Positions 7,890-61,760 of a stretch of 64,000 nt of DNA are shown here, piece after piece (positions within the stretch are counted from its first letter, which is position 1; every line of letters begins with the position of its first letter). The stretch is from assembly GCA_964016885.1 (NCBI GenBank), contig OZ024741.1, positions 320,850,001-320,914,000 on the forward strand, written 5' to 3'. The position numbers and the translations under genes are program-made. A model generated the notes under the pieces. The model searched no databases, was not told the origin of the DNA, and saw only the letters and a list, made by a program, of their open reading frames with translations. This stretch comes from Eledone cirrhosa (taxonomy: Eukaryota).

Positions 7890-10800
7890 GCACCCAGGGA
7901 GAGCACCCCTCTCTTCAAGTTAGCTATGGTCAGAGTAGGCCCATTCACACGAGCCATTCTCGCCACATTCACCCACCTTTTAGCGAATGTACTGGGGGGC
8001 AGCACTTCTCTCTCCACCCTCACCCTCCTTTCCAGGTGAAACTTGAAGAAGTTGATGAGGGATTGGCCGAAGAGAAAAGTGTCTGTCTTTAGTCCTTTCA
8101 ACCTGGTTCACCATATAATCTCTTTCGCAACTGCCACCAGACAGTTGGACAAGTGCGTGCAGAACGGTTTCGCCGTTCTGTGCGCATCTTGGGCAGGTCC
8201 GTCTGACAGCACTTCCGTGCCTGTAGAGTTTATCCCGAACCGGCAGTGCCCCCCGGTAGCACTGCCAAGCGAGGGATTTCTGGAAATTGTCCATCGTCCC
8301 CGGCTCAAAAGTCCTCCGGTACAGACTGGTCAGTTCGACTTCGTCGAGGCCCAAAGCTTCTCCGAGTGCGTCATCGCACTTGCCCACCACTAATCCTCTA
8401 TAGAACTCGAGAGTGGAAGTTCCACTGATCGCATTGCCCGCTTGGTAGAGGGCAGTGAGTGCCTGGCAACATTCCAGGTGCCAGTCACCCAGTCTCGGTC
8501 TCTTCTTGACCCAGGACTGCAGCTCAGTCAAAGAAATGAGCTACGGATAGGCCCGTCTGATAAACGGCGACCACACCTGTTCACCATTGAGGCAGAATAT
8601 CTGGAGATGTCGCAGCCTCAACGCATATCTGCACATCATTAGCCACGGCAGCCCAGCCCTCCGCGTAGAGGGTGCTGGCAGCAGATGGACCGCCTCACCA
8701 ACGGAACTTGTCCCCTCCACAAGAATTTGAAGAGGAGCCGTTCCAACTTGACGAGGCGCGGACGGGGGTAAGGCACGACGGTTAGGCGGTAGTAGATGAC
8801 GGACGCGATGTACGCATTCGCCACCTCCGCGCGACCTTTCAGTGATAGCTTCCTCCCAGCCCATTTTTGGGTGAGACTGGCTACTCTGCTCGTCACCTCG
8901 TCCCAATTCTTTTCCACCTGGAGGTCTGGTCCGAACCAAACCCCGAGCAACTTTACCGGTCCGTCCGTCCAGCGCCCCACGACGCTGTTGGACGGCATGG
9001 GCTTGCCTCTTCAGGTTCCGAGCTGCAAGCCCACCGACTTTTCCGGGTTAAGTTTGGCTCCTGTCAACCTTGCATATTCCTTCAAAAAGGTGCCGACCAC
9101 CTCGATTTCTGAGGTGTTCGACACCATCACGGTGATGTCGTCCGCATAAGCCGACACCGCCTTTCCACGTCCCGGTTCGAGCGGGATGCCCTGCAACAGC
9201 TCCAGCTTCCGCAGTAAAGGCTCGAGAGTCAATACGTACAGAAGGGAAGAGAGAGGGCACCCTTGACGGACCGATCGGGAGAGCCGAAATGGTTCCGAGA
9301 GGTGGCCATTAACCTTGACCACCGAGCGTTTGCCGCTGTGCATTGCAACGATCCATCTTCTAAAGACAGGGCCGAAGCCAGCTGCTTTGAGGACAAACTC
9401 CAGATACTGATGGTCGACCCTATCGAATGCTTTCGATTGATCTAAATTGATCAGTGCCCCACCGAAGCCAGGTTTACACCCTACCCTCTCTATGATGTAT
9501 CGCATGAGGTGGAGATTGTCGTGTATGGACCTGGCTGGGATTGCGCAAGTTTGCGCCTCCCCAACCAAATCCTCGACGACAAGCGCCAATCTCTTTGCTA
9601 ACACCTTGGCCAAAATCTTAAACTCTGTGTTGAGCAGAGTTATGGGCCTGAAGTTGTCTAATGTATCCCACTTGTTCTCGTCTTTCCTTATCAGCGTCAC
9701 CACTCCCTTGCTCACAGAACTGGGAATTGCAGTAGAGTGCTTCGAGGAGTTCGGAGAAGTCTGGCATATTTACGTAAAGCTCGTAGGGCAGGCCATCCAA
9801 ACCGGGTGACTTGCGCCTCATGCAGCCGACAAGGGCGTCCTGAATTTCGGCTGAGGTAATCGGCCTTTCGCAGCGCTCAGCGTCGACCGTCGAGATACGC
9901 GGCAAGCCGTCAAGGTAGGGACTGAAATCCGCTACTCTCTCTGACTCGCCACTCTCCCTAAACAACCGAGCAAAGTGCTGGCGAAAGGCCTCACACATCC
10001 GCTTGGATTCGCTTATCTCGTGTCCGTCTCGGTCCGCCAAAGACCGAATTGTGGTTTTATTACCACGCTGCGCCTCCGCCACGCGGGCCCATCGAACAGC
10101 TTCAGTTCCCTCGTTTCTCAGCGCACGCGCCTTAGCTCTGACAATGCAACCTTCGTGTTTGGCATTGAAGAAATGGTCTAATGACATTCTCGCCGCTAGC
10201 ACGTCAGTTGCGATGCCACTACAAATAGCCTCGTCTAACTTATCTACAGCTCCCCCTCCTTTCTATTTTTCTCTAACGCTAGTTCTTTGCTGAACTCTAT
10301 CGAAGTTACTCTAATCTCACTTTTGAGAGCCCCCCACCATCTGTTGTTGATGATCCCCCCTGTCAACTTTTGCTTAACTAAATTGTTGACTCGGTCCCTG
10401 TAAGCCTTACGTGCCGGAAATGACATGTTCAGCTTCCAGTAACCCGGTCCTAACCTACGCGTTTTATTTAGGTCGACCGTACAGATCACAAATTTGTGAT
10501 CTGAATAGGCGACCGTTTTAAAAAGTGGACAGCCCACACTATTTCTATCTATTTTCCTAATGAAGATCCTGTCTATATACGATCTAGATGACCCCATTCG
10601 GTTGGTCCATGTCCATATTGGCACATTGGGGAAATCTAGTCGATACCTGTCAGACAGTTGGAACTGGCTGAGTAGGTGCTTGAGGCTTTTGCACTCCCCG
10701 CTCCTATCGGCTACTCCCACACAATCCCAGCGTGCGTCTAAGATGCCATTCCAGTCCCCCGCTAACAGTAAAGGGCGAGACGTACCCAGAAAGGTCTCCA

Positions 10801-11176
10801 GGCGCCTAAAGAAGTCAGGTCGTCCGGCCCCTGTAGGGGCGTAGACGGCCAGCAGTCTAAAGGCACCACCTTCGCTACTGCTCACATCCAAGACCACCAA
10901 CTTACCGTCCGGGTCCCGGAAGATCGACCTTACCTCGAGATCCAGTCCTTTCCTAAACAGCACTGCCACCCCATCCCCCATTCCCGGCCTGCTAACAGAT
11001 GCGAAGATCTGATAGTCATCGAAAATGGGGGCTAGTGCGCGCGTGTCGGAAATTCTGGTCTCGCTTATGGCAATCACATCCATTTCCAGCGACCGCAGGT
11101 CGTTGAGCAGGCGACCCTGCTTCCAGGGTGACCCCAGGCCGCGAACATTTAAACTTCCTACTCTTAATGTGGCCAT
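7890..11176 (-). pseudogene. LINE ORF2: AP endonuclease, reverse transcriptase, C-terminal zinc finger
   Basis: APE (SLNVRGL, ISETR, GDWN, SYIDRIF, SDHK) at 10244-11176; RT (FRPITLLN, DQSKAFDRV, RQGCPLS, AYADD) at 9011-9715; C-terminal pieces at 8639-8998 and 7980-8531; split over several frames, with deletions near 9720 and 8140 relative to expectation and to the copy at 1-600. Confidence 0.93.
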
Positions 11177-11185
11177 ATTGGTAAG

Positions 11186-21120: not shown

Positions 21121-21304
21121 TGTGTGTGTGCGTGTATGTGTGTGTGTGTGCGTGTGTGTGTGTGTGTGTGCGTGTGTGTGTGCGTGTATGTGTGCGTGTA
21201 TGTGTGCGTGTGTGTGTATACCAGTGAGTGACTCCCGGGTTCAATCGGGGATAATTACAGTAAGATTCTCAATACATTGTGAGTGTAGACATCATGTTTA
21301 ATAT

Positions 21305-21411
21305 AGAAATGGCTTCTGCAGGATTAGAACTGTTTCATTCAAAAGAAATCATCAGGAAAACCCTGATGATTTCTTTTGAATGAAACAGTTCTAGTTCGGT
21401 AGAAGCTATTG

Positions 21412-21413
<2 letters not shown>
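21305..21413. ncRNA. Head-to-head pair of ~55-nt solo hammerheads
   Basis: Plus: cc CTGATGA tttc tttt gaat GAAA cagttctagttcgg TA gaagc; the mirror copy at 21305-21358 has U16.1 changed to C. Confidence 0.7.
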
Positions 21414-21454
<41 letters not shown>

Positions 21455-24419: not shown

Positions 24420-27400
24420 GTATGTATGTATGTTATCTCCTTCTCATAATTTCGAGTATATTTTTTTGACCGGCCACCTTCCTGGTGGCAAGGATGTAAA
24501 AGAAAAGAAATTGTCATCCCTTGAATCGCAAGAATGTCTTGCAAATTTTGAAGGTGCGAGCTATCGCAGCCATTTGTAGACTATGAATTAGGGAGCTGCG
24601 CTCTTTCTCCGCAAATCCAAATTCAGTCATACTTTGGTTCAAGCGGGTTGGTATATAACCCGTAGCTCCAATAATGATGGGTATGAAACTAAAGGTGTAT
24701 CTTGGATACTGGATTTGTAAACTCCTCATCAATGGTCCGTAGATGTCCTCCTTCTCCTGTATTTTTCTGAGAACGTTTACATCAAGTGGGCAGCTGATCT
24801 CCACAACAGAACACGTTTTCAATGTGTGGTCCCAAACAACAATATCAGGCCGGTTGTGCTTTAATTTGGTGGCAGTTTTTATTTTCAGGTTCCACGAGTA
24901 TTCCTTAGTGCCATCTCTCTCAATATATTGTTCCTCGTTTGTTGTTAATTTTGTTTTCCGATGTGCGTTCCAGATGGTTCTAGCTATCACATCGTGTCTC
25001 ATGGGAAGGTAGTAGCGAGATGACATTATTTCGCAGCTGGCAACAATGTGGCTTACATCCTCGATCTTTGTTTTACATAGCCTACATTTATTGTCAGCTG
25101 CTGGCCCTCCCTTTTTGTGCAGCAGATATTTGGTAGGGAGTTCTTGTTCCTGTATTGCATAGAGATATCCCTCAAGGTGTGATGTCATAAACTTGTCGGA
25201 ACTCCATGCCAGGCTTTTTGAGTGGTTTATCCCCTCTTTGGTCTGTGTTTTACGTCTCAAGTATCCATGCACAACTTTTTCTGTAAATTGCTCAATTTTT
25301 TTTCATCTTGTTTGAACATTGAATAGGATCTTCCGATTTCTCTGGGTGAGAGATTTATATCAGGCTTTATTCCATATCTCTCCTCCAGATCAGTGGCTAT
25401 TCTAATGATTTTTTTTTTTCATGCTCATAAACCTGGGCAAGATGGTTGCCAACATTTTTCCTCTGGTGAAGATGTTGCTTAATTGTTACTATCCAGGTCT
25501 CATATGATGTTAATATGGATTTTAGACCCCGGCCACCTTCCTTGCGTGAGAAGTATAGCCTATCCACATCACCATTGATGTTAAAGTTCCCAGTAACACT
25601 GAGAAGTTTGCGAGTTCTAACATCCATCTCACTTAGTTCTTGCAATGACCAGTTCAGCAGGCCAAATGTTGGCGTTAGAATTGGCACAGCATAAGTATTG
25701 TTGTACGCTGACAGTTCTGATGACCATAATTTCTTTACTGTTCTTAGGTATTCAGTTCTTGTTCTCTCCTTATTTATGGGTCCATCATATCTGACATTCT
25801 CATCCTGTCCAAGATATCTGTAGTTTCACCTGACTGTAGAGGTTGTATTGTCAGGCCATTCATCTCTAGATTTCTAGAGGAGGGCACAGCTCTTCCACGT
25901 TTTACTGCCAAATATGCACATTTGGACTCACCAAATTTAATTTTGATGTCTGTTGAAAATTGTGTAATGAGGTCCAATTGTTTCTTGATGTCATTGATAT
26001 TTGGCCCATACAACTTCAGGTCATCAACAAAGAAAAGATGGGAGATACTTCTGGACCCACTTCTTTGTCCACCTTGTTTTCTGAGCAGGTAAGTTAGTAG
26101 ATTTAGTGAGAGAACAAGAATAGCACTGACAAGCTATCACCCTGAAAGATGCCCTTCTGGTAATGTATCTCATCAGTCTTAACCTGCTTCTTCTCACCTC
26201 TTAGGATCAAATTGGTGTACCAGTTCTTGGTAAGACGTTCAACAGCAGCTACCAGTGGTTGTGGGACTTTGGATAACTGTAAAGCCTTAACAATCCACCC
26301 ATGAGGTACACTATCAAATGCTTTTGATAGTCCAGCCACACCACAGTCATGTTTCTGCGATTCTTTGTTGTTTTTTCTTGAATCATTTTATTAGTTAGTA
26401 GGTGATCTATGCAACCCACACCTCCCTCTTTCCACCAGCTTGCTCGGGTGTTATGAAGTTGTTGGCAGCACAGCGATCCTGTAAGAACAGGTTAAGGCAC
26501 CCAGTATATAATTTATACATGATGTTTTGGCAGGCTATTGAGCGGTAATTTTTAGCAAGGGTGGTTTGGCTATTTTGGGGAATGAGGAGAGTAGTGGCAG
26601 TTGATAACAATCTGGGCAGTTATTGTGCGCCTTTAATGGTTTCTGTAAACAGCCGTATGAGATCTTGCCGTTAGAAAGTGAAATTCTTCAACCAGTATCC
26701 TTTTATGAGGTCTGGGCCTGGTGATTTCCTATTTTATATTTTCTGTAGAGTTGTTTCCAGTATTGACCCATCTATGTCATACTGTTTTGTCTGGACATGT
26801 TGACAGTAGTCCTGTTCCAGTTCTTTTAGCCATTTAGTTTGTCTGTTGAATCCGTTATCTGTTTCCCATACAGATCTCCAGTAGCTCTCAACCCGTTCTT
26901 TTGAAGGGGTGACATTTACAGAGATTGAGCTTTTGCCACCGAAGCTGCGATAAACTGATTTAGGATCTCTGGTAAACAATCTATTTAGCACTTGTTGTTT
27001 ATGTGCTGTTGGCTTATATTTTAGTCTTTCTGTTGTAGCTGTGAGTTGCTGTTTCAACTGGTGTAATTTGGAGTTTAAATTTTTAAACTTTGTATCTCCA
27101 AATCGTCTCTCTAACATTTTGGGGTCTTCCTGGTGTCGTGTGAAGTTGCTCTCTATGTTGCATTTCATAACGACTGCGATGTGTGCGATACTTCGTCTCA
27201 GGGACAAAACTTTGCTTTTTAAATTTCGCATCCGCGCTGGTTCAAGCTTTTTGTATGTATCTTGATTGCGTGGTTTTAGATGTCTGTTATATGATAGCAA
27301 TGTGACAGCTGAAACATATAGCAAAATGTTAAGCGTTTCAAATGTCGTTTCTACACCTTTAGATCGTATAGCCTTCAGATAATTGTCAGCTATTTCGTTC

Positions 27401-38575: not shown

Positions 38576-38581
<6 letters not shown>

Positions 38582-39275
38582 GAATAGAATTGGTGCTCTG
38601 AAATACCGATATATATATGAATGTATATATATTGTATTTTGCAATAAATTGTATGCTTAATTAAAAGCATTTCGAAGACCTTACGCTATTGTTTTAGAGT
38701 AGTGACAGTTTCACTTACTTTAATTTTCAGCAAACAGGGGAGATAAAGCTGACAGAGCTCTCTTTCGCACTTTTTGGTGCTTATCAAAGCTAACTACTCC
38801 TCCTGTTTGCTGAAAATCATGAATGTTTGATTCTTATAGAATTCTAGTAATAATCAGGAACTGATTATACAGAGCGGTTGCCGGTCAAGCAGAAATTGAA
38901 AATTAGAATTGGTGCTCTGAAATAGCGATATATATATGAATGTATATATACTGTATTTTGCAATAAACTGTATGCTTAATTAAAAGCATTTCGAAGACCT
39001 ATCTAATTTTCAATTTCTGCTTGACCGGCAACCGCTCTGTATAATCAGTTCCTGATTATTACTAGAATTCTATAAGAATCAAACATTCATGATTTTCAGC
39101 AAACAGGAGGAGTAGTTAGCTTTGATAAGCACCAAAAAGTGCGAAACAGGACTCTGTCAGCTTTAACTCCCCTGTTTGCTAAAATTAAAGTAAGTGAGAC
39201 TGTCACTACTCTAAAATAATAGCGTAAGGTCTTCAAAATGCTTTTAATTAAGCATACAGTGTATTGCAAAATACA
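38576..39275. mobile_element. 319-bp retrozyme-like unit: about 1.3 direct copies followed by an inverted copy
   Basis: tagaattggtgctctg at 38585 and 38904; inversion from about 39002; (TA)n flanks; homologous scaffold to the 310-bp repeat. Confidence 0.85.
39093..39184 (+). ncRNA. Type I hammerhead with U3-A8 variant core (UUGAUAA), GUC site
   Basis: agct TTGATAA gcac caaaaa gtgc GAAA cag gact ctg TC agct, closed by agcaaacagg/cctgtttgct; predicted cleavage after 39158; second copy on minus at 38725-38815. Confidence 0.88.
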
Positions 39276-39276
39276 C

Positions 39277-39397
<121 letters not shown>

Positions 39398-45064: not shown

Positions 45065-47568
45065 TCTATCTATCTATCTATCCATCTATTACTAAAACTC
45101 TGATCTTGCTTGCTTGTCTGTTATGTAATACAGCCAAAATGGGTAAATACTTTGAAAGCAAGTTGCCTCTGAAATGGGAATAGAAATTGAATAAAACAAG
45201 TTTCGCGAAAATCTCATCCCGGGTTCCCGATATTCGCGGGTTTTGGGGGTACCTTCGTAAATAGCCACAAGAAAATACCCCGAAATTAACATAACCCTGC
45301 AAAACTTCGTAAATAGCCAAAACATTGAATAATGAGATAATACTCTGAATAAAACAAGTTTGGCGTAAATCGCACATGGACAATATTTTCAATTTTCCAA
45401 AAATAGCAAGGAATTCATCTAAATTTAATTTATCTTGTTTTATAATGAATATCGAAAGAAATAATCCATTTGTTTTTTGGTTATCCATTCTGTAGGTAAG
45501 AGAGCCAGAGAGGGGGTGAAAGAGAGAGGGATGGGGGGAGAGAGAGAAAGAGAGAGTGAGGGTGAGAGAGAGAAAGAGAGAGAGTGAGGGGATGAGAGAG
45601 AGAGGGGGGATGACAGATAGGGAAAGAGACAGTGTCCTTAACTTTTATTTATTTTAACTCGCCCCCTATCCATAACGCTATTTCTTTCTCTCTCTTTCAC
45701 AGTTCTACTGCCACCGTGTGTATCTGTATGTGTATGTGTGCCAGTGCATGTGTTTACGTACTTAGAGACATGTGTGTGTGTGTAACGGTACTTAACTTAG
45801 AGACATATATATATATATTTGTGTGTGTGTGTCTGTCCGTGTGTGTGTGTGTTTGCGTGTAGGATACACTCGTAAATAGCCAAAACGGTGCATAATGGAA
45901 AACGCCTGCATTAAAAAATCCTACTTATGGCGAAGCTTCAAAATATTTCAGTTGAAGACAAACATACGATTGGGTGGGGAAGCAGGAGACTATTCACAGT
46001 TCCTATTGGATATTGGAGAAGATAAGATAAATAAAACTGAAAATGAGGAAATTATTTTGCCAAAAGAAATGGTTCTCCAAGCAACAACTATGGAAGAATG
46101 TATTGATTTCATCTACCCCTCATTCGACAAACCAGCTGAAGTGTTTTCGAACAATTGCATCTTAGTATCTCAATGAAATGATGAGAAGCATCAATTCCAC
46201 CTGTATCGGACGCTTCCCTGGACCCATGAAAGAGTACAGATCCTATAATTCTGTGAGTGATGGTGCCAATGCCACTCATTTCCCGACTGAATTCCTTGAT
46301 TCGGTTGAACTATCAGGACTGCCACCACATAACCTGGAATTGAAAAAAGGATCGCCAATAATTCTTATAAGAAACTTGAATCCTCCAAGGATTTGTAATG
46401 GAACGCGCATGATCGTGGAAGAACTGCACGACAATCTCATAGTAGTAAGAAGCAACACCGCTGCTTTCAGAAATGAGATCGTTATGATACCTAGAATAAG
46501 AATTAATCTATCCGAAGGTGAGGATATCCCTTTGCAGCGAAGCCAATTCCCAGTTCAATCGTGCTTCGCTATGACTATTCATAAAGCTCAAGGACAAACT
46601 ATGGAAAACGTCTTGGTTTATCTGGAACGACCTGTATTCCAACACGGTCAACTGTATGTAGCCTTTAGCCGCGGAAAACGAATAGAAAATGACGGAGTGT
46701 TTCTGAAGGATACCCAGTCACCTAAGGATGTTGTTATCAAAAGCATTCTTTTGAACAAACTGTAACAGCGTAAATATGATAAAATATTGATTCCGACGTC
46801 AGAAAATGAAAGGAAAAGGAAAAACTAAGACAATTAAGAATAATTTCTTTCGAATTTTTGCAGATAAAACCAGCTTTTCATTAACATTGCAACTTTTTAA
46901 GCAGAAAAATCTTTCAGAACAAACAGGCAAGCATCCATAGAGATATAGAAAAAAGAATTTTCAAGTGGAATGATTGGATAGCTATTAGTGAAAAATGATT
47001 TGATATTTTCTTTGTGAAAATACTTGTGAATAATACAGTGTAAATACAAGTTTCGCGTAAATTGGACCACGGGTTCCCGAGATACGCGGGTTTTTTCGGG
47101 TACCTTTATAAATAGCCAAATCAGCGCATAATGGGAAAATACTTTGAAAGTAGGGTACCATTGAAATGTGAATACAAACGCAGATAGTGGTTGTGAAAGA
47201 GAGAGAGGGAGAGAGAGGTGGTGGTGTTGTTGAATGAAATTATGACAGGTGACTTCAAAGAATCGAATACAGCATGACTGTATCTAGCTTGAATTTGGTG
47301 ACTGAATATTAAGTTATATGTATCTTATAACTTGTGTTAGGACAGGATGTATGTGTGTGTGTGTCTGTGACCAGTGTATATAGGCCACAGACACCCACAC
47401 ACACAAACACATATATATATATACACGTACATATACACACACACATACACGTATATATATATATTGGCTTTCCAATGTCATTTTACATTATATACATTTT
47501 TTGTATATTTTAATTATTTAAAAATTATTTTTAAGTGAACATGACCCAACGAGTCACGAGTGGTCTAG
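45065..47568 (+). mobile_element. Internally deleted Helitron with both termini
   Basis: Begins TC after A (atta|tctatc), ends CTAG before T, with subterminal hairpin tgacccaacgagtca (about 47542-47556); contains a helicase fragment. Confidence 0.85.
45895..46765 (+). pseudogene. Helitron Pif1-like helicase C-terminal fragment
   Basis: FPTEFLDS..GLPPHNLELKKGSPIILIRNLNPPRICNGTR, RSQFPV..FAMTIHKAQGQT, VFQHGQLYVAFSR; one frameshift at about 46176. Confidence 0.92.
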
Positions 47569-48553: not shown

Positions 48554-48619
48554 AGCTTTCCTGGTGATTTACTTCGAATGAAACAGTTCTAGTCCTGTAG
48601 AAGCCATTTCTATATTAAA

Positions 48620-48687
<68 letters not shown>

Positions 48688-48751
48688 ATATATAGAAATG
48701 GCTTCTACAGGATTAGAGCTGTTTCATTCGAAGGAAATCATTAGGAAAGCT
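48554..48751. ncRNA. Two solo hammerhead motifs (48554-48612 plus, 48695-48751 minus) separated by (TA)n
   Basis: agctttc CTGGTGA tttacttcgaat GAAA cagttctagtcctg TA gaagcc and agctttc CTAATGA tttccttcgaat GAAA cagctctaatcctg TA gaagcc; each has one core substitution. Confidence 0.7.
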
Positions 48752-48784
48752 ATATATATATGCATATATATTTATATATGTATG

Positions 48785-49491: not shown

Positions 49492-49495
<4 letters not shown>

Positions 49496-49820
49496 AATGA
49501 TTAATAAAACAGGTAGACATCATAAAAAGATAATTTATTCCGAGTGCTTACAAATGTCTCTTTAGTAGTTACACAGCCTAGTCATGCTATGTGCAAATTG
49601 GTAGTTATTTATTTTCAAATGCTGTTCATTCTACCAAGTCTTCAGAGCGAATTAAGACTTGGTAGAATGAACAGCATTTGAAAATTGAGTATCTGCAAAT
49701 AAGTAGCTACCAATTTGCACATAGCATGACTAGGCTGTGTAACTACTAAAGAAACATTTGTAAGCACTCGGAATAAATTATCTTTTTATGATGTCTACCT
49801 GTTTTATTAATCATTCTTTA
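49492..49820. repeat. ~330-bp fold-back element in (TA)n containing a long-stem-II hammerhead
   Basis: Arms 49492-49643 and 49654-49820 are reverse complements; consensus attcgct CTGAAGA c-ttggtag...ctactaa-a GAAA catttg TA agc..gaat. Confidence 0.75.
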
Positions 49821-49970
49821 TATATATATATATACATATATATATATGCATATAGACATAGAATATTCGAAAATATTCTGTATGTTTATAATAAACATTT
49901 TGAAGACCTAATCGCTATAGAATAGAATACGTCACGTATTACAATTAGATTCTCGATAAAAGCAAGGGAA

Positions 49971-50013
49971 GTAATCTACGCGTTTCATTCTCGTTAGAAA
50001 TCATCAGGACTAC
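49971..50013 (-). ncRNA. Minimal type I hammerhead ribozyme, copy 1
   Basis: Minus: gtagtc CTGATGA t-ttct aacg agaa-t GAAA cgcg TA gattac; palindromic ACGCGT stem III; GUA site (cut between 49977 and 49976); enclosed by a perfect 16-bp stem 49949-49964/50022-50037. Confidence 0.88.
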
Positions 50014-50280
50014 ATATCCAGTGCTTTTATCGAGAATGACACAGCTAGAGACTTATAGAATACTTAGCTGTGTACAGGAACTGGTTTGAAAGAGCGGTTG
50101 CCGGTCCGGCAGAAATTAGAAATTGGAATAAATGCTCTGAAATAGCGATATATATGTGAATATAGACATAGAATATTCGAAAATATTCTGTATGTTTATA
50201 ATAAACATTTTGAAGACCTAATCGCTATAGAATAGAATACGTCACGTATTACAATTAGATTCTCGATAAAAGCAAGGGAA

Positions 50281-50323
50281 GTAATCTACGCGTTTCATTC
50301 TCGTTAGAAATCATCAGGACTAC
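50281..50323 (-). ncRNA. Minimal type I hammerhead ribozyme, copy 2
   Basis: Identical to 49971-50013, offset by 310 bp. Confidence 0.88.
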
Positions 50324-50590
50324 ATATCCAGTGCTTTTATCGAGAATGACACAGCTAGAGACTTATAGAATACTTAGCTGTGTACAGGAACTGGTTTGAA
50401 AGAGCGGTTGCCGGTCCGGCAGAAATTAGAAATTGGAATAAATGCTCTGAAATAGCGATATATATGTGAATATAGACATAGAATATTCGAAAATATTCTG
50501 TATGTTTATAATAAACATTTTGAAGACCTAATCGCTATAGAATAGAATACGTCACGTATTACAATTAGATTCTCGATAAAAGCAAGGGAA

Positions 50591-50633
50591 GTAATCTACG
50601 CGTTTCATTCTCGTTAGAAATCATCAGGACTAC
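50591..50633 (-). ncRNA. Minimal type I hammerhead ribozyme, copy 3
   Basis: Identical to 49971-50013, offset by 620 bp. Confidence 0.88.
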
Positions 50634-50896
50634 ATATCCAGTGCTTTTATCGAGAATGACACAGCTAGAGACTTATAGAATACTTAGCTGTGTACAGGAA
50701 CTGGTTTGAAAGAGCGGTTGCCGGTCCGGCAGAAATTAGAAATTGGAATAAATGCTCTGAAATAGCGATATATATGTGAATATAGACATAGAATATTCGA
50801 AAATATTCTGTATGTTTATAATAAACATTTTGAAGACCTAATCGCTATAGAATAGAATACGTCAGCTATATATATATATATGCATATATATATATA

Positions 50897-50957
50897 TAGC
50901 TTTCCTGATGATTTCCTTCGAATGAAACACCTCTAATCCTGTAGAAGCCATTGCTAT
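50897..50957 (+). ncRNA. Solo ~60-nt hammerhead with intact core, between (TA)n tracts
   Basis: agctttc CTGATGA tttc cttc gaat GAAA ca cctctaatcc tg TA gaagcc. Confidence 0.75.
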
Positions 50958-50978
50958 ATTATATATATATATATATAT

Positions 50979-53975: not shown

Positions 53976-54007
53976 CGTATATATATATATATATATATAT
54001 TTAATAT

Positions 54008-54065
54008 AGAAATGGCTTCTCCTGGACTAGAACTGTTTCATTCGAAGGAAATCACCAGGAAAACT
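54008..54065 (-). ncRNA. Degenerate solo hammerhead (CTGGTGA core, cleavage triplet lost)
   Basis: Homologous to 50897-50957; in (TA)n. Confidence 0.6.
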
Positions 54066-59889: not shown

Positions 59890-60645
59890 ATGTATGTGCA
59901 TGTATGTGTGTGTATGTAGAGTAAGTGAGATATACGTAGATAGATATAGAGATCTATAGATAGATAGTTAGGTAGATTGATAAATAGATAGATAATTCGT
60001 GTACATACATATATATAGTGTAATCTGGAACATTCAGTTTAAGTAGACTAGATTGAGTACAATAGATATGAATACAGCAAATAGACCAGATAATGCGTAG
60101 AAAAGTAATGAAAGGAAATAACTGCAAATATATATCTAAAGTGCATACAGTGTACAGAAATGGTTTCATTGGCAGACAGACATGTAGATAGGTATACAAC
60201 ACATAGATGGGTACCTATCAACTAGCACGCACACGCACAGACATACACACATACACATGTATGTGTGAGTGCGTGTGTTATATATATATATATATATATA
60301 TATTGTTATACTTGGGGAGGGTCATATTTGTGTAATATTGCCAGAATTAATAACAGAACACACTCACTGTTTGGTTGGTTTTCGCTTTTCGCTTCTGTGT
60401 CTTTTATATCGGTAATCTAATTTATTCGGTCCTCAATGTTGCCATTGACTGACCAACGGTCAAAAATAATACAGATACAATATAGACACAAACACATATA
60501 TATATAGTTTATCAAAGTTCTTTCGTTGCACATCTGCAACATCGTCAGTGGTGCTATTGTTTCCTCCCGTTGCATTGTTTTTTCTACGCCATCTTTATTT
60601 AGTCTGTTTATTTAGTCTCTTTATTTAGTCTGTTTATTTAGTCGC

Positions 60646-61711: not shown

Positions 61712-61760
61712 TAGCACCACTGACGATGTTGCAGATGTGCAACGAAAGAACTTTGATAAA
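61712..61760 (+). ncRNA. Partial or minimal hammerhead-like motif in PLE terminal repeat
   Basis: CTGACGA t gttgca gatg tgcaac GAAA gaac TT tgat; stem II is strong but stems I and III are weak; mirrored at about 60510-60556. Confidence 0.45.

What the first reader, a model, noticed from the sequence alone, without database searches (positions are those of the whole stretch)
49851..50864. Perfect 310-bp tandem array of hammerhead-containing, highly structured units: candidate young circular-RNA retrozyme
Seen: 3.27 head-to-tail copies that look identical, with no ORF, dropped into (TA)n. Each has on the minus strand CUGAUGA/GAAA/GUA with a 6-bp stem I, a 4-bp stem II and a palindromic ACGCGU stem III, at the tip of a perfect 16-bp helix. 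The rest of the monomer is a chain of hairpins (gaatattcgaaaatattc, tgtttataataaaca, aatacgtcacgtatt, acacagcta..tagctgtgt). Known: minimal type I HHRs with palindromic stem III cleave as dimers and occur in PLE pLTRs and in metazoan non-LTR retrozymes that yield circRNAs. Inference: transcription through the array releases 310-nt monomers that circularise, and the non-integer copy number reflects rolling-circle reverse transcription by a PLE RT. I do not know of this family being described in cephalopods but cannot search.
Basis: partly seen in the sequence, partly recalled or inferred. Interest (0 to 1): 0.9.

Follow-up and report, generated by a model that had tools for sequence, protein, structure and literature searches.

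The report
Mirror-image retrozyme arrays from RNA circles
This repeat is one copy of a very young, abundant mobile element that carries a predicted self-cutting RNA and almost always sits in the genome as two back-to-back tandem arrays, a pattern that likely records a Penelope-type enzyme copying a small RNA circle round and round from two fixed start points at once.

Summary
The array is real: 49850-50864 has 3.27 identical 310-bp units, each with a type I hammerhead fold on the minus strand. It belongs to a family of roughly 1,400-1,500 insertions in (TA)n (estimate).

Of 123 insertions examined, 107 are two inverted arrays, and in all 107 one arm ends at site A and the other at site B, about 35 nt further on. 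This is the Penelope-like 'tail', which coding Neptune-type elements in this genome also show. The window copy is a minority one-armed case.

Arms share a haplotype in 53 of 55 insertions. The 5' breaks ignore the ribozyme cut site. Array-fixed changes are skewed to A>G (16 against 3 T>C).

Best reading: a non-LTR retrozyme whose monomeric RNA circle is likely reverse-transcribed from both cut DNA strands. Cleavage, circular RNA and the partner enzyme are not shown, and Rfam gives no hammerhead hit. The scan noted a similar Penelope-type tandem element, without a ribozyme, in another genome.

The parts
49850..50864 (-). Single-armed retrozyme insertion, 3.27 identical 310-bp units. The 3' end is at 49850 (site A, 127 nt after the predicted cut) and the 5' truncation at 50864 (phase 43).
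49971..50013 (-). Type I hammerhead copy 1 (stem I 6 bp; stem II 4 bp on a U-U mismatch; palindromic stem III); predicted cut 49977/49976
   Evidence: sequence; no Rfam hit
50281..50323 (-). Hammerhead copy 2; predicted cut 50287/50286
50591..50633 (-). Hammerhead copy 3; predicted cut 50597/50596
50022..50274 (-). Domain of one monomer closed by the 16-bp helix (arms 50274-50259 and 50037-50022). Sister families have a long helix of different sequence in the same place.
50142..50228 (-). Conserved multiloop (closing helix plus two hairpins) containing site A; inferred recognition and initiation domain for the PLE protein
   Evidence: 94.5% of cells paired, 3 of 20 pairs with two-sided changes across 10 related sequences; function inferred
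50122..50157 (-). 'Tail' between site A (phase 130) and site B (phase 165). It is internal in this copy and present at exactly one end of two-armed insertions elsewhere.
49819..49849 (.). (TA)n target, left flank; 49836-49849 is a possible target-site duplication
50865..50898 (.). (TA)n-type right flank; 50870-50883 repeats the left 14 nt

Best explanation
The array is one insertion of a young, non-coding repeat family that nearly always lies in (TA)n as two inverted tandem arrays ending at two fixed sites, and it is likely a non-LTR retrozyme copied into the genome by a Penelope-like (probably Neptune-type) reverse transcriptase from a 310-nt RNA circle. SHOWN: family size, end sites, arm pairing, haplotype sharing and mutation skew. 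INFERRED steps: (1) Read-through transcripts self-cleave. The palindromic stem III would need two hammerheads, so multimers would be cut and a monomer circle would be stable. (2) Monomers are ligated into circles. (3) The PLE protein binds the conserved multiloop and cuts both strands of a (TA)n tract. One DNA 3' end primes at site A and the other at site B, about 35 nt away. (4) Both polymerases roll round the circle for a variable number of turns (arm medians 3.2 and 4.5 units). (5) The two cDNA ends join by short microhomology and template each other's second strand, giving a mirror-image insertion. The window copy is the minority outcome in which only the A primer was extended. Some of the longest arrays were probably also reshaped at the DNA level after insertion.
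For: Abundance: 4,225 exact matches to the 32-nt core, reversed-pattern control 0. 718 A-end and 742 B-end junctions with (TA)6 on the forward strand alone. Architecture: of 123 insertions, 107 are resolved inverted pairs and all 107 are A/B, none A/A or B/B (106 by script, plus L039 read). Commonest ends are phase 130 (54 of 106) or 139 (31 of 106) and phase 165 (96 of 106). 190 of 212 arms exceed one unit. The 5' breaks are not enriched at the ribozyme cut: 5 of 208 within 5 nt, 6.7 expected. Junction microhomology averages 2.4 nt against 0.76 for random joins. Arm lengths correlate (rho 0.29, p 0.003) (all). One template: arms share a haplotype in 53 of 55 insertions (shuffled mean 6.9, maximum 16), and 7 of the 55 carry variants seen nowhere else in the sample and fixed in both arms. 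112 of 125 minority variants occur in one unit only, and none of 41 testable ones is mirrored between arms apart from the L147 switch. RNA-strand signature: A>G 16 against T>C 3 among changes leading to rare haplotypes (p 0.0005), versus 7 against 12 among sporadic changes (Fisher p 0.007). Three sites recur 3-4 times, all in a UA context. Machinery: RT plus GIY-YIG elements with open frames of 938 and 1096 aa. Five coding loci show the same inverted ends with a tail on one side. Two RT start sites defining the tail, with both strands cut and extended, were shown in vitro for a Poseidon element (PMC11167929).
Against: Cleavage, ligation and a 310-nt RNA were not observed. Rfam finds no hammerhead, and the U-U base of stem II is predicted to weaken it. 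In one published PLE, cleavage was not needed for insertion and unprocessed RNA was the main template. In Xenopus, 8 of 9 tested retrozyme dimers did not cleave. No coding PLE sharing the body of this unit was found in 50 GIY-YIG stretches, so the partner is unidentified. 2 of 55 insertions have arms of different majority haplotype (L067, L147), so more than one template can be used. 13 of 125 minority variants are shared by several units, mostly in long arrays (L050, L053, L054, L134), which points to later DNA-level duplication or conversion. The A>G skew could come from selection, since A>G leaves a G-U pair whereas U>C breaks one. 'Private' variants are private only among about 8% of insertions. 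All sampled loci except the window are from the first 290 Mb of one chromosome, and most were found by one of their ends.
Confidence: 0.78

Rival explanations
1. Same PLE two-primer insertion, but the template is an uncleaved linear multimer transcribed through a parent array. The hammerhead would be weak or idle and no circle would be needed.
For: Unprocessed RNA was the dominant substrate for the anole Poseidon protein. Stem II has a U-U base. The lack of 5' breaks at the cut site fits this too. L147 could be a mosaic parent copied in order.
Against: Variants fixed in every unit of both arms need a one-monomer bottleneck (7 of 55). Editing-like A>G changes are fixed array-wide rather than unit by unit. 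No minority variant is mirrored between arms outside L147. Arrays could not grow longer than their parents.
Confidence: 0.11
2. Short PLE-type insertions that later expanded locally by unequal crossover or slippage, the satellite route proposed in the 2026 preprint.
For: Multi-unit shared variants with higher-order spacing in L050, L053, L054 and L134. The model is stated.
Against: Within-array divergence is only 0.045%. 112 of 125 minority variants are single-unit. 87 of 106 insertions have more than one unit in both arms, with correlated lengths. An arm cannot seed a 310-bp repeat unless it already crosses the cut/ligation point.
Confidence: 0.06
3. DNA-based rolling circle (extrachromosomal circular DNA or Helitron-like) with reinsertion, and the hammerhead as a passenger.
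For: This would also give homogeneous multimers. A Pif1-type helicase fragment lies in the window.
Against: It does not predict two fixed, paired 3' ends with a tail like those of coding PLEs, nor the strand-specific A>G skew.
Confidence: 0.04
4. Assembly or long-read fold-back artefact.
For: Perfect units and palindromic layouts can arise from read chimeras (general knowledge).
Against: Each insertion has different flanks on its two sides, A/B asymmetry, insertion-specific haplotypes and junction fillers. The head-to-tail joint stands in contigs of 3 of 4 other runs laid.
Confidence: 0.01

Closest known systems
Metazoan non-LTR retrozymes (PMC7229834; preprint 10.64898/2026.07.22.740005)
   Same: Non-coding tandem units of 170-400 nt, low GC, one type I hammerhead per unit, highly self-paired, co-occurring with PLEs. 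Axolotl hammerheads with a palindromic helix III or a U-U base of helix II are described.
   Different: Those papers describe direct tandems and leave priming and the mobilising enzyme open, or invoke unequal crossover. In the parts read and the term searches made, no inverted two-arm arrays, paired A/B ends or editing-like fixed variants are described. Expression as circular RNA is shown there, not here.
Penelope-like elements: Poseidon PAc (PMC11167929) and general PLE structure (PMC8557442)
   Same: AT-rich or (TA)n targets, an inverted 5'-truncated copy, a 30-40 bp tail at one end only, two internal RT start sites, and both strands cut and extended.
   Different: No ORF here, and both arms are long multimers of a 310-nt unit. 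The strict one-A, one-B pairing per insertion is measured here (107 of 107); the in vitro paper saw no strand difference in start site and, in the parts read, did not address pairing.
Non-autonomous Chlamys elements such as MRC1 (passage in PMC8557442)
   Same: Non-autonomous PLE derivatives with multicopy head-to-tail insertions.
   Different: That clade is described as lacking canonical hammerheads and lives in green algae.
L1 twin priming (recalled, no call)
   Same: Two target 3' ends prime on one RNA and the cDNAs join by microhomology, giving an inversion.
   Different: In L1 one primer uses the poly(A) end, the other is not at a fixed site, and inversion is a minority outcome. Here both sites are internal and fixed, and inversion is the rule.

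Membership tests
non-LTR retrozyme | Tandem non-coding repeats of about 170-400 bp, low GC, dispersed at many loci | tested here: met
non-LTR retrozyme | Type I hammerhead motif in every unit | tested here: met
   Core, stems I-II and palindromic stem III present by inspection. Common variants fall at N7, loop 2, the U-U repair (23 of 112) and pair-keeping stem I changes. Not confirmed by Rfam.
non-LTR retrozyme | Self-cleavage of the transcript | not testable with these tools
   needs in vitro transcription
non-LTR retrozyme | Accumulation as monomeric circular RNA | tested here: inconclusive
   Only indirect genomic signatures; no direct RNA data were available
PLE-mobilised element | Inverted 5'-truncated copy and 30-40 bp tail at one end | tested here: met
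   107 of 107 resolved two-armed insertions are A/B; commonest ends give 26-35 nt
PLE-mobilised element | AT-rich or microsatellite targets | tested here: met
   Flanks. The 10 loci found by the core alone, with no end selection, also end in (TA)n-type tracts.
PLE-mobilised element | Sequence shared with the pLTR of an autonomous PLE | tested here: inconclusive
   No body homology to coding elements in 50 GIY-YIG stretches; only the hammerhead core matches a small non-coding family
autonomous PLE | ORF with RT and GIY-YIG endonuclease | tested here: not met
   such ORFs lie elsewhere in the genome
Rfam hammerhead families | Match to the covariance model | tested here: not met

The most novel reading that the evidence does not exclude
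Each insertion is a fossil of one RNA circle being copied at the same time by both halves of a Penelope-like protein dimer. One half is fixed to start site A and the other to site B, each is primed by one strand of a double-strand cut, and both roll for many turns by strand displacement. A-to-I edits in the circle's helices are written back into every unit. This would be genomic evidence for double rolling-circle target-primed reverse transcription, and for RNA editing driving the heritable evolution of a mobile element.
Probability: 0.5. Interest if true: 0.88.

Novelty: new variant of a known kind. Interest (0 to 1): 0.74.

Why it matters
How animal retrozymes are primed, which enzyme moves them, and whether their arrays come from rolling-circle copying or later unequal crossover are left open in the papers read. 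So is how PLEs form their tandem and inverted ends.

This family is young enough (0.045% within-array divergence) and numerous enough to read those steps from the genome. It shows PLE-type ends, strict one-A, one-B pairing, birth as multimers and a single-monomer bottleneck. It also supplies a 310-nt substrate with mapped start sites for an in vitro test.

The layout predicts kilobase-long perfect double-stranded RNA from any read-through transcript, at over a thousand loci.

Tried and rejected
- DNA similarity search of the own genome returned nothing.
- Rfam found no hammerhead; the E-value hits were (TA)n matching microRNA models.
- No RNA holder was listed; this is no evidence on expression.
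- Contigs of 4 runs were laid on one unit. Their library type is not on record, so they cannot show a circular RNA.
- The search for the autonomous partner by sequence in 50 GIY-YIG stretches failed. The hit in L082 is a sister retrozyme inserted beside a PLE fragment. Tail lengths of about 33-36 nt (L117, L128) match better than about 63 nt (L116, L121, L124), but predicted folds showed no convincing shared structure.
- Target-site duplications could not be measured in general because the flanks are microsatellites.
- Conservation of the catalytic core among fixed variants is not significant, and positions 301-310 were the anchor used to cut units, so variants there are invisible.
- The idea that the small hammerhead at 50899-50965 is the missing second arm was rejected: it belongs to another family, is diverged, and occurs with the same flank elsewhere in the window.
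- Rows dropped: L068 was fetched on the wrong side and replaced by L202. Five B-end loci listed beyond 86 Mb were not fetched. L001-L030 duplicate L031-L032.
- Host taxon was not determined.
- The look-up of earlier notes on this genome was empty.

Full report
OBSERVATION. The window holds an exact 310-bp periodicity from 49850 to 50864 (3.27 copies, no mismatch), between (TA)n-type tracts, with no ORF above 30 codons from an ATG. Each unit has on the minus strand the hammerhead core with a 6-bp stem I, a 4-bp stem II resting on a U-U mismatch, and a palindromic stem III that can pair only between two copies. The monomer folds better than 99 of 100 shuffles (z -3.91). Rfam does not recognise the ribozyme, so the call rests on inspection and on published descriptions of similar motifs. 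Below, 'phase' counts nucleotides after the predicted cut.

FAMILY. The 32-nt core occurs 4,225 times exactly in the 3.0-Gb genome. End-junction patterns give 718 and 742 forward-strand matches (the reverse counts list each locus several times), and an exact B-end pattern gives 943 on both strands. I infer about 1,400-1,500 insertions. At about 9.6 units each that is roughly 14,000 units. I examined 123 insertions: the window; 10 found by the core alone; 39 found by either end pattern, plus L202 replacing a misfetched one; 71 found by the exact B end; and one found by chance in L201.

ARCHITECTURE. 107 insertions are two arrays in inverted orientation with both 3' ends pointing outward into (TA)n. 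In all 107 one arm ends at site A (phase 118-139, mostly 130 or 139) and the other at site B (163-170, mostly 165) (L039 was scored by eye because a neighbouring element confused the script). Three run off the fetched stretch. Thirteen are one-armed (8 A including the window, 5 B). One of these has an 11-nt B stub and one ends at an assembly gap. One end was selected in most loci but the partner end never was, and 9 of the 10 unselected loci are A/B. The 5' breaks are spread round the unit (chi-square p 0.07 over 10 bins; 5 of 208 within 5 nt of the cut, 6.7 expected). Of 104 simple junctions, 69 have no filler and average 2.4 nt of microhomology against 0.76 for random joins; the rest carry fillers of 1-19 nt, and one of 272 nt.

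LINK TO PLEs. An inverted truncated copy and a 30-40 bp tail at one end are PLE hallmarks (PMC8557442, passages). The tail lies between two internal RT start sites used by a Poseidon protein that cuts and extends both strands and is predicted to be a dimer (PMC11167929, parts 1-2 of 4 read). This genome has many GIY-YIG loci (10,596 candidates, 150 scored). Among them are RT plus GIY-YIG elements with open frames of 938 and 1096 aa and a cysteine-rich linker that I read as Neptune-type from the definition (Pfam found GIY-YIG in 3 of the 4 proteins scanned). Five of 20 long-frame loci show inverted ends with a one-sided tail. None shares the body of the 310-nt unit, so the partner is not identified.

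EVIDENCE FOR A MONOMERIC CIRCLE. 923 full units from 112 insertions fall into 40 haplotypes. Both arms share the majority haplotype in 53 of 55 insertions with at least two full units per arm (shuffled mean 6.9, maximum 16), and 7 carry sample-private variants fixed in both arms. Minority variants are rare (125 in 892 units, 0.045%), 112 of 125 lie in one unit, and they are not mirrored between arms. The arrays were therefore mostly born long and homogeneous. The two exceptions look like in-register template switches: in L147 both arms start on one haplotype and one arm changes after two units, and L067 differs only at phase 276. A small linear hammerhead family in the same genome serves as a rough control. 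It has its own TATA-like 5' end and its own paired ends, and none of the 29 matches listed is part of a multimer (by inspection).

RNA-STRAND SIGNATURE. On a minimum spanning network, changes leading to rare haplotypes are 16 A>G against 3 T>C (binomial p 0.0005), whereas sporadic changes are 7 against 12 (Fisher p 0.007). Sites 20, 259 and 276 recur 3-4 times, lie in helices and follow a U. At phase 276, 5 of 48 units in G-fixed arrays carry A. This fits A-to-I editing of the template (neighbour preference recalled, no call). Selection favouring G-U over A-C pairs is a rival, and it also requires an RNA stage of this strand.

STRUCTURE. Older sister families, one in the window at 38576-39299, share the multiloop and tail and have the same paired ends, but have different hammerheads and different long helices. 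Across 10 sequences, 94.5% of cells pair, 3 of 20 pairs change on both sides, and slid controls give 24-51%. The sequences are related and the structure came from the focal one, so this is supportive only. The focal hammerhead core is close to that of the small linear family, which suggests a module swap (inference).

AGAINST. There is no direct RNA evidence. Published retrozyme dimers often fail to cleave (8 of 9), and cleavage was dispensable for the anole element. Long arrays show multi-unit variants (13 of 125), so DNA-level change contributes. Sampling covers one chromosome arm plus the window.

COMPARISON AND NOVELTY. It meets the sequence criteria of a non-LTR retrozyme; cleavage and circularity are untested. 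Papers seen: PMC7229834 (passages and Discussion); the 2026 preprint (parts 1 and 3 of 5 and term passages; supplements not seen); PMC4209133 (passages), which notes hammerhead pairs on opposite strands 100-700 bp apart in a schistosome. Eight literature searches listed no paper whose title or abstract start describes inverted twin retrozyme arrays or A/B pairing. The library lacks most subscription journals and I read only five papers. An earlier scan note from another genome describes a ribozyme-free tandem element with Penelope-type ends (not checked). The parts are known. The inverted double-multimer form, and what it reveals about priming, appear new, though the form may simply be unrecognised in known retrozymes.

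VERDICT. Real, young retrozyme-type family. PLE-type two-primer insertion is very likely, and a monomeric circular RNA template is likely (overall 0.78). Novelty: new variant of a known kind. Interest 0.74.

Noticed in passing
window 38576-39299: Insertion of an older sister retrozyme family (about 75-79% identical in the multiloop, different hammerhead with an atypical core), also an inverted pair with B end left and A end right. Relatives lie in L033, L045, L082, L136, L156, L160, L167 and L193.
   Followed up: partly
window 21290-21415, 48555-48755, 50899-50965, about 53990-54065, 1700-1770: Abundant small non-coding hammerhead family with a TATA-like upstream region in full-length copies and paired ends about 65 nt apart; short inverted pairs, no multimers seen. 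It looks like a linear, SINE-like PLE parasite.
   Followed up: partly
window 49493-49818: 326-bp near-perfect palindrome in (TA)n directly left of the array, with equal ends; MITE-like rather than PLE-like.
   Followed up: no
window 60521-60548 and 61720-61747: Another inverted pair of hammerhead-like motifs from a further family.
   Followed up: no
window 7980-11185 (minus): Broken LINE with endonuclease, RT and zf-RVT matches; a second zf-RVT fragment at 24514-25302.
   Followed up: no
window 46166-46765: Pif1-type helicase fragment, possibly Helitron-derived.
   Followed up: no
L054:3599-3870: 272 nt of unrelated, GC-richer sequence captured at the centre junction of an inverted array; source unknown.
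   Followed up: no
L134: An arm of at least 29 units in which a two-change variant appears in 6 scattered units: repeated template switching, a multimeric circle or gene conversion.
   Followed up: partly
window 49850-50159 laid on runs X1, X2, X6: Runs of three different organism labels hold the head-to-tail joint. X1 and X2 hold the unit as one 340-nt contig identical to the window haplotype, although that haplotype is only 26 of 112 here; X4 shows many variants. Library types are not on record.
   Followed up: partly
flanks of L031-L202: Many (TA)n tracts are hubs where ends of several different PLE-type families sit side by side.
   Followed up: no
L111:3809-6622 (-), L113:775-4062 (+): Long open Neptune-type PLE frames (938 and 1096 aa), candidates for active mobilising enzymes.
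   Followed up: partly
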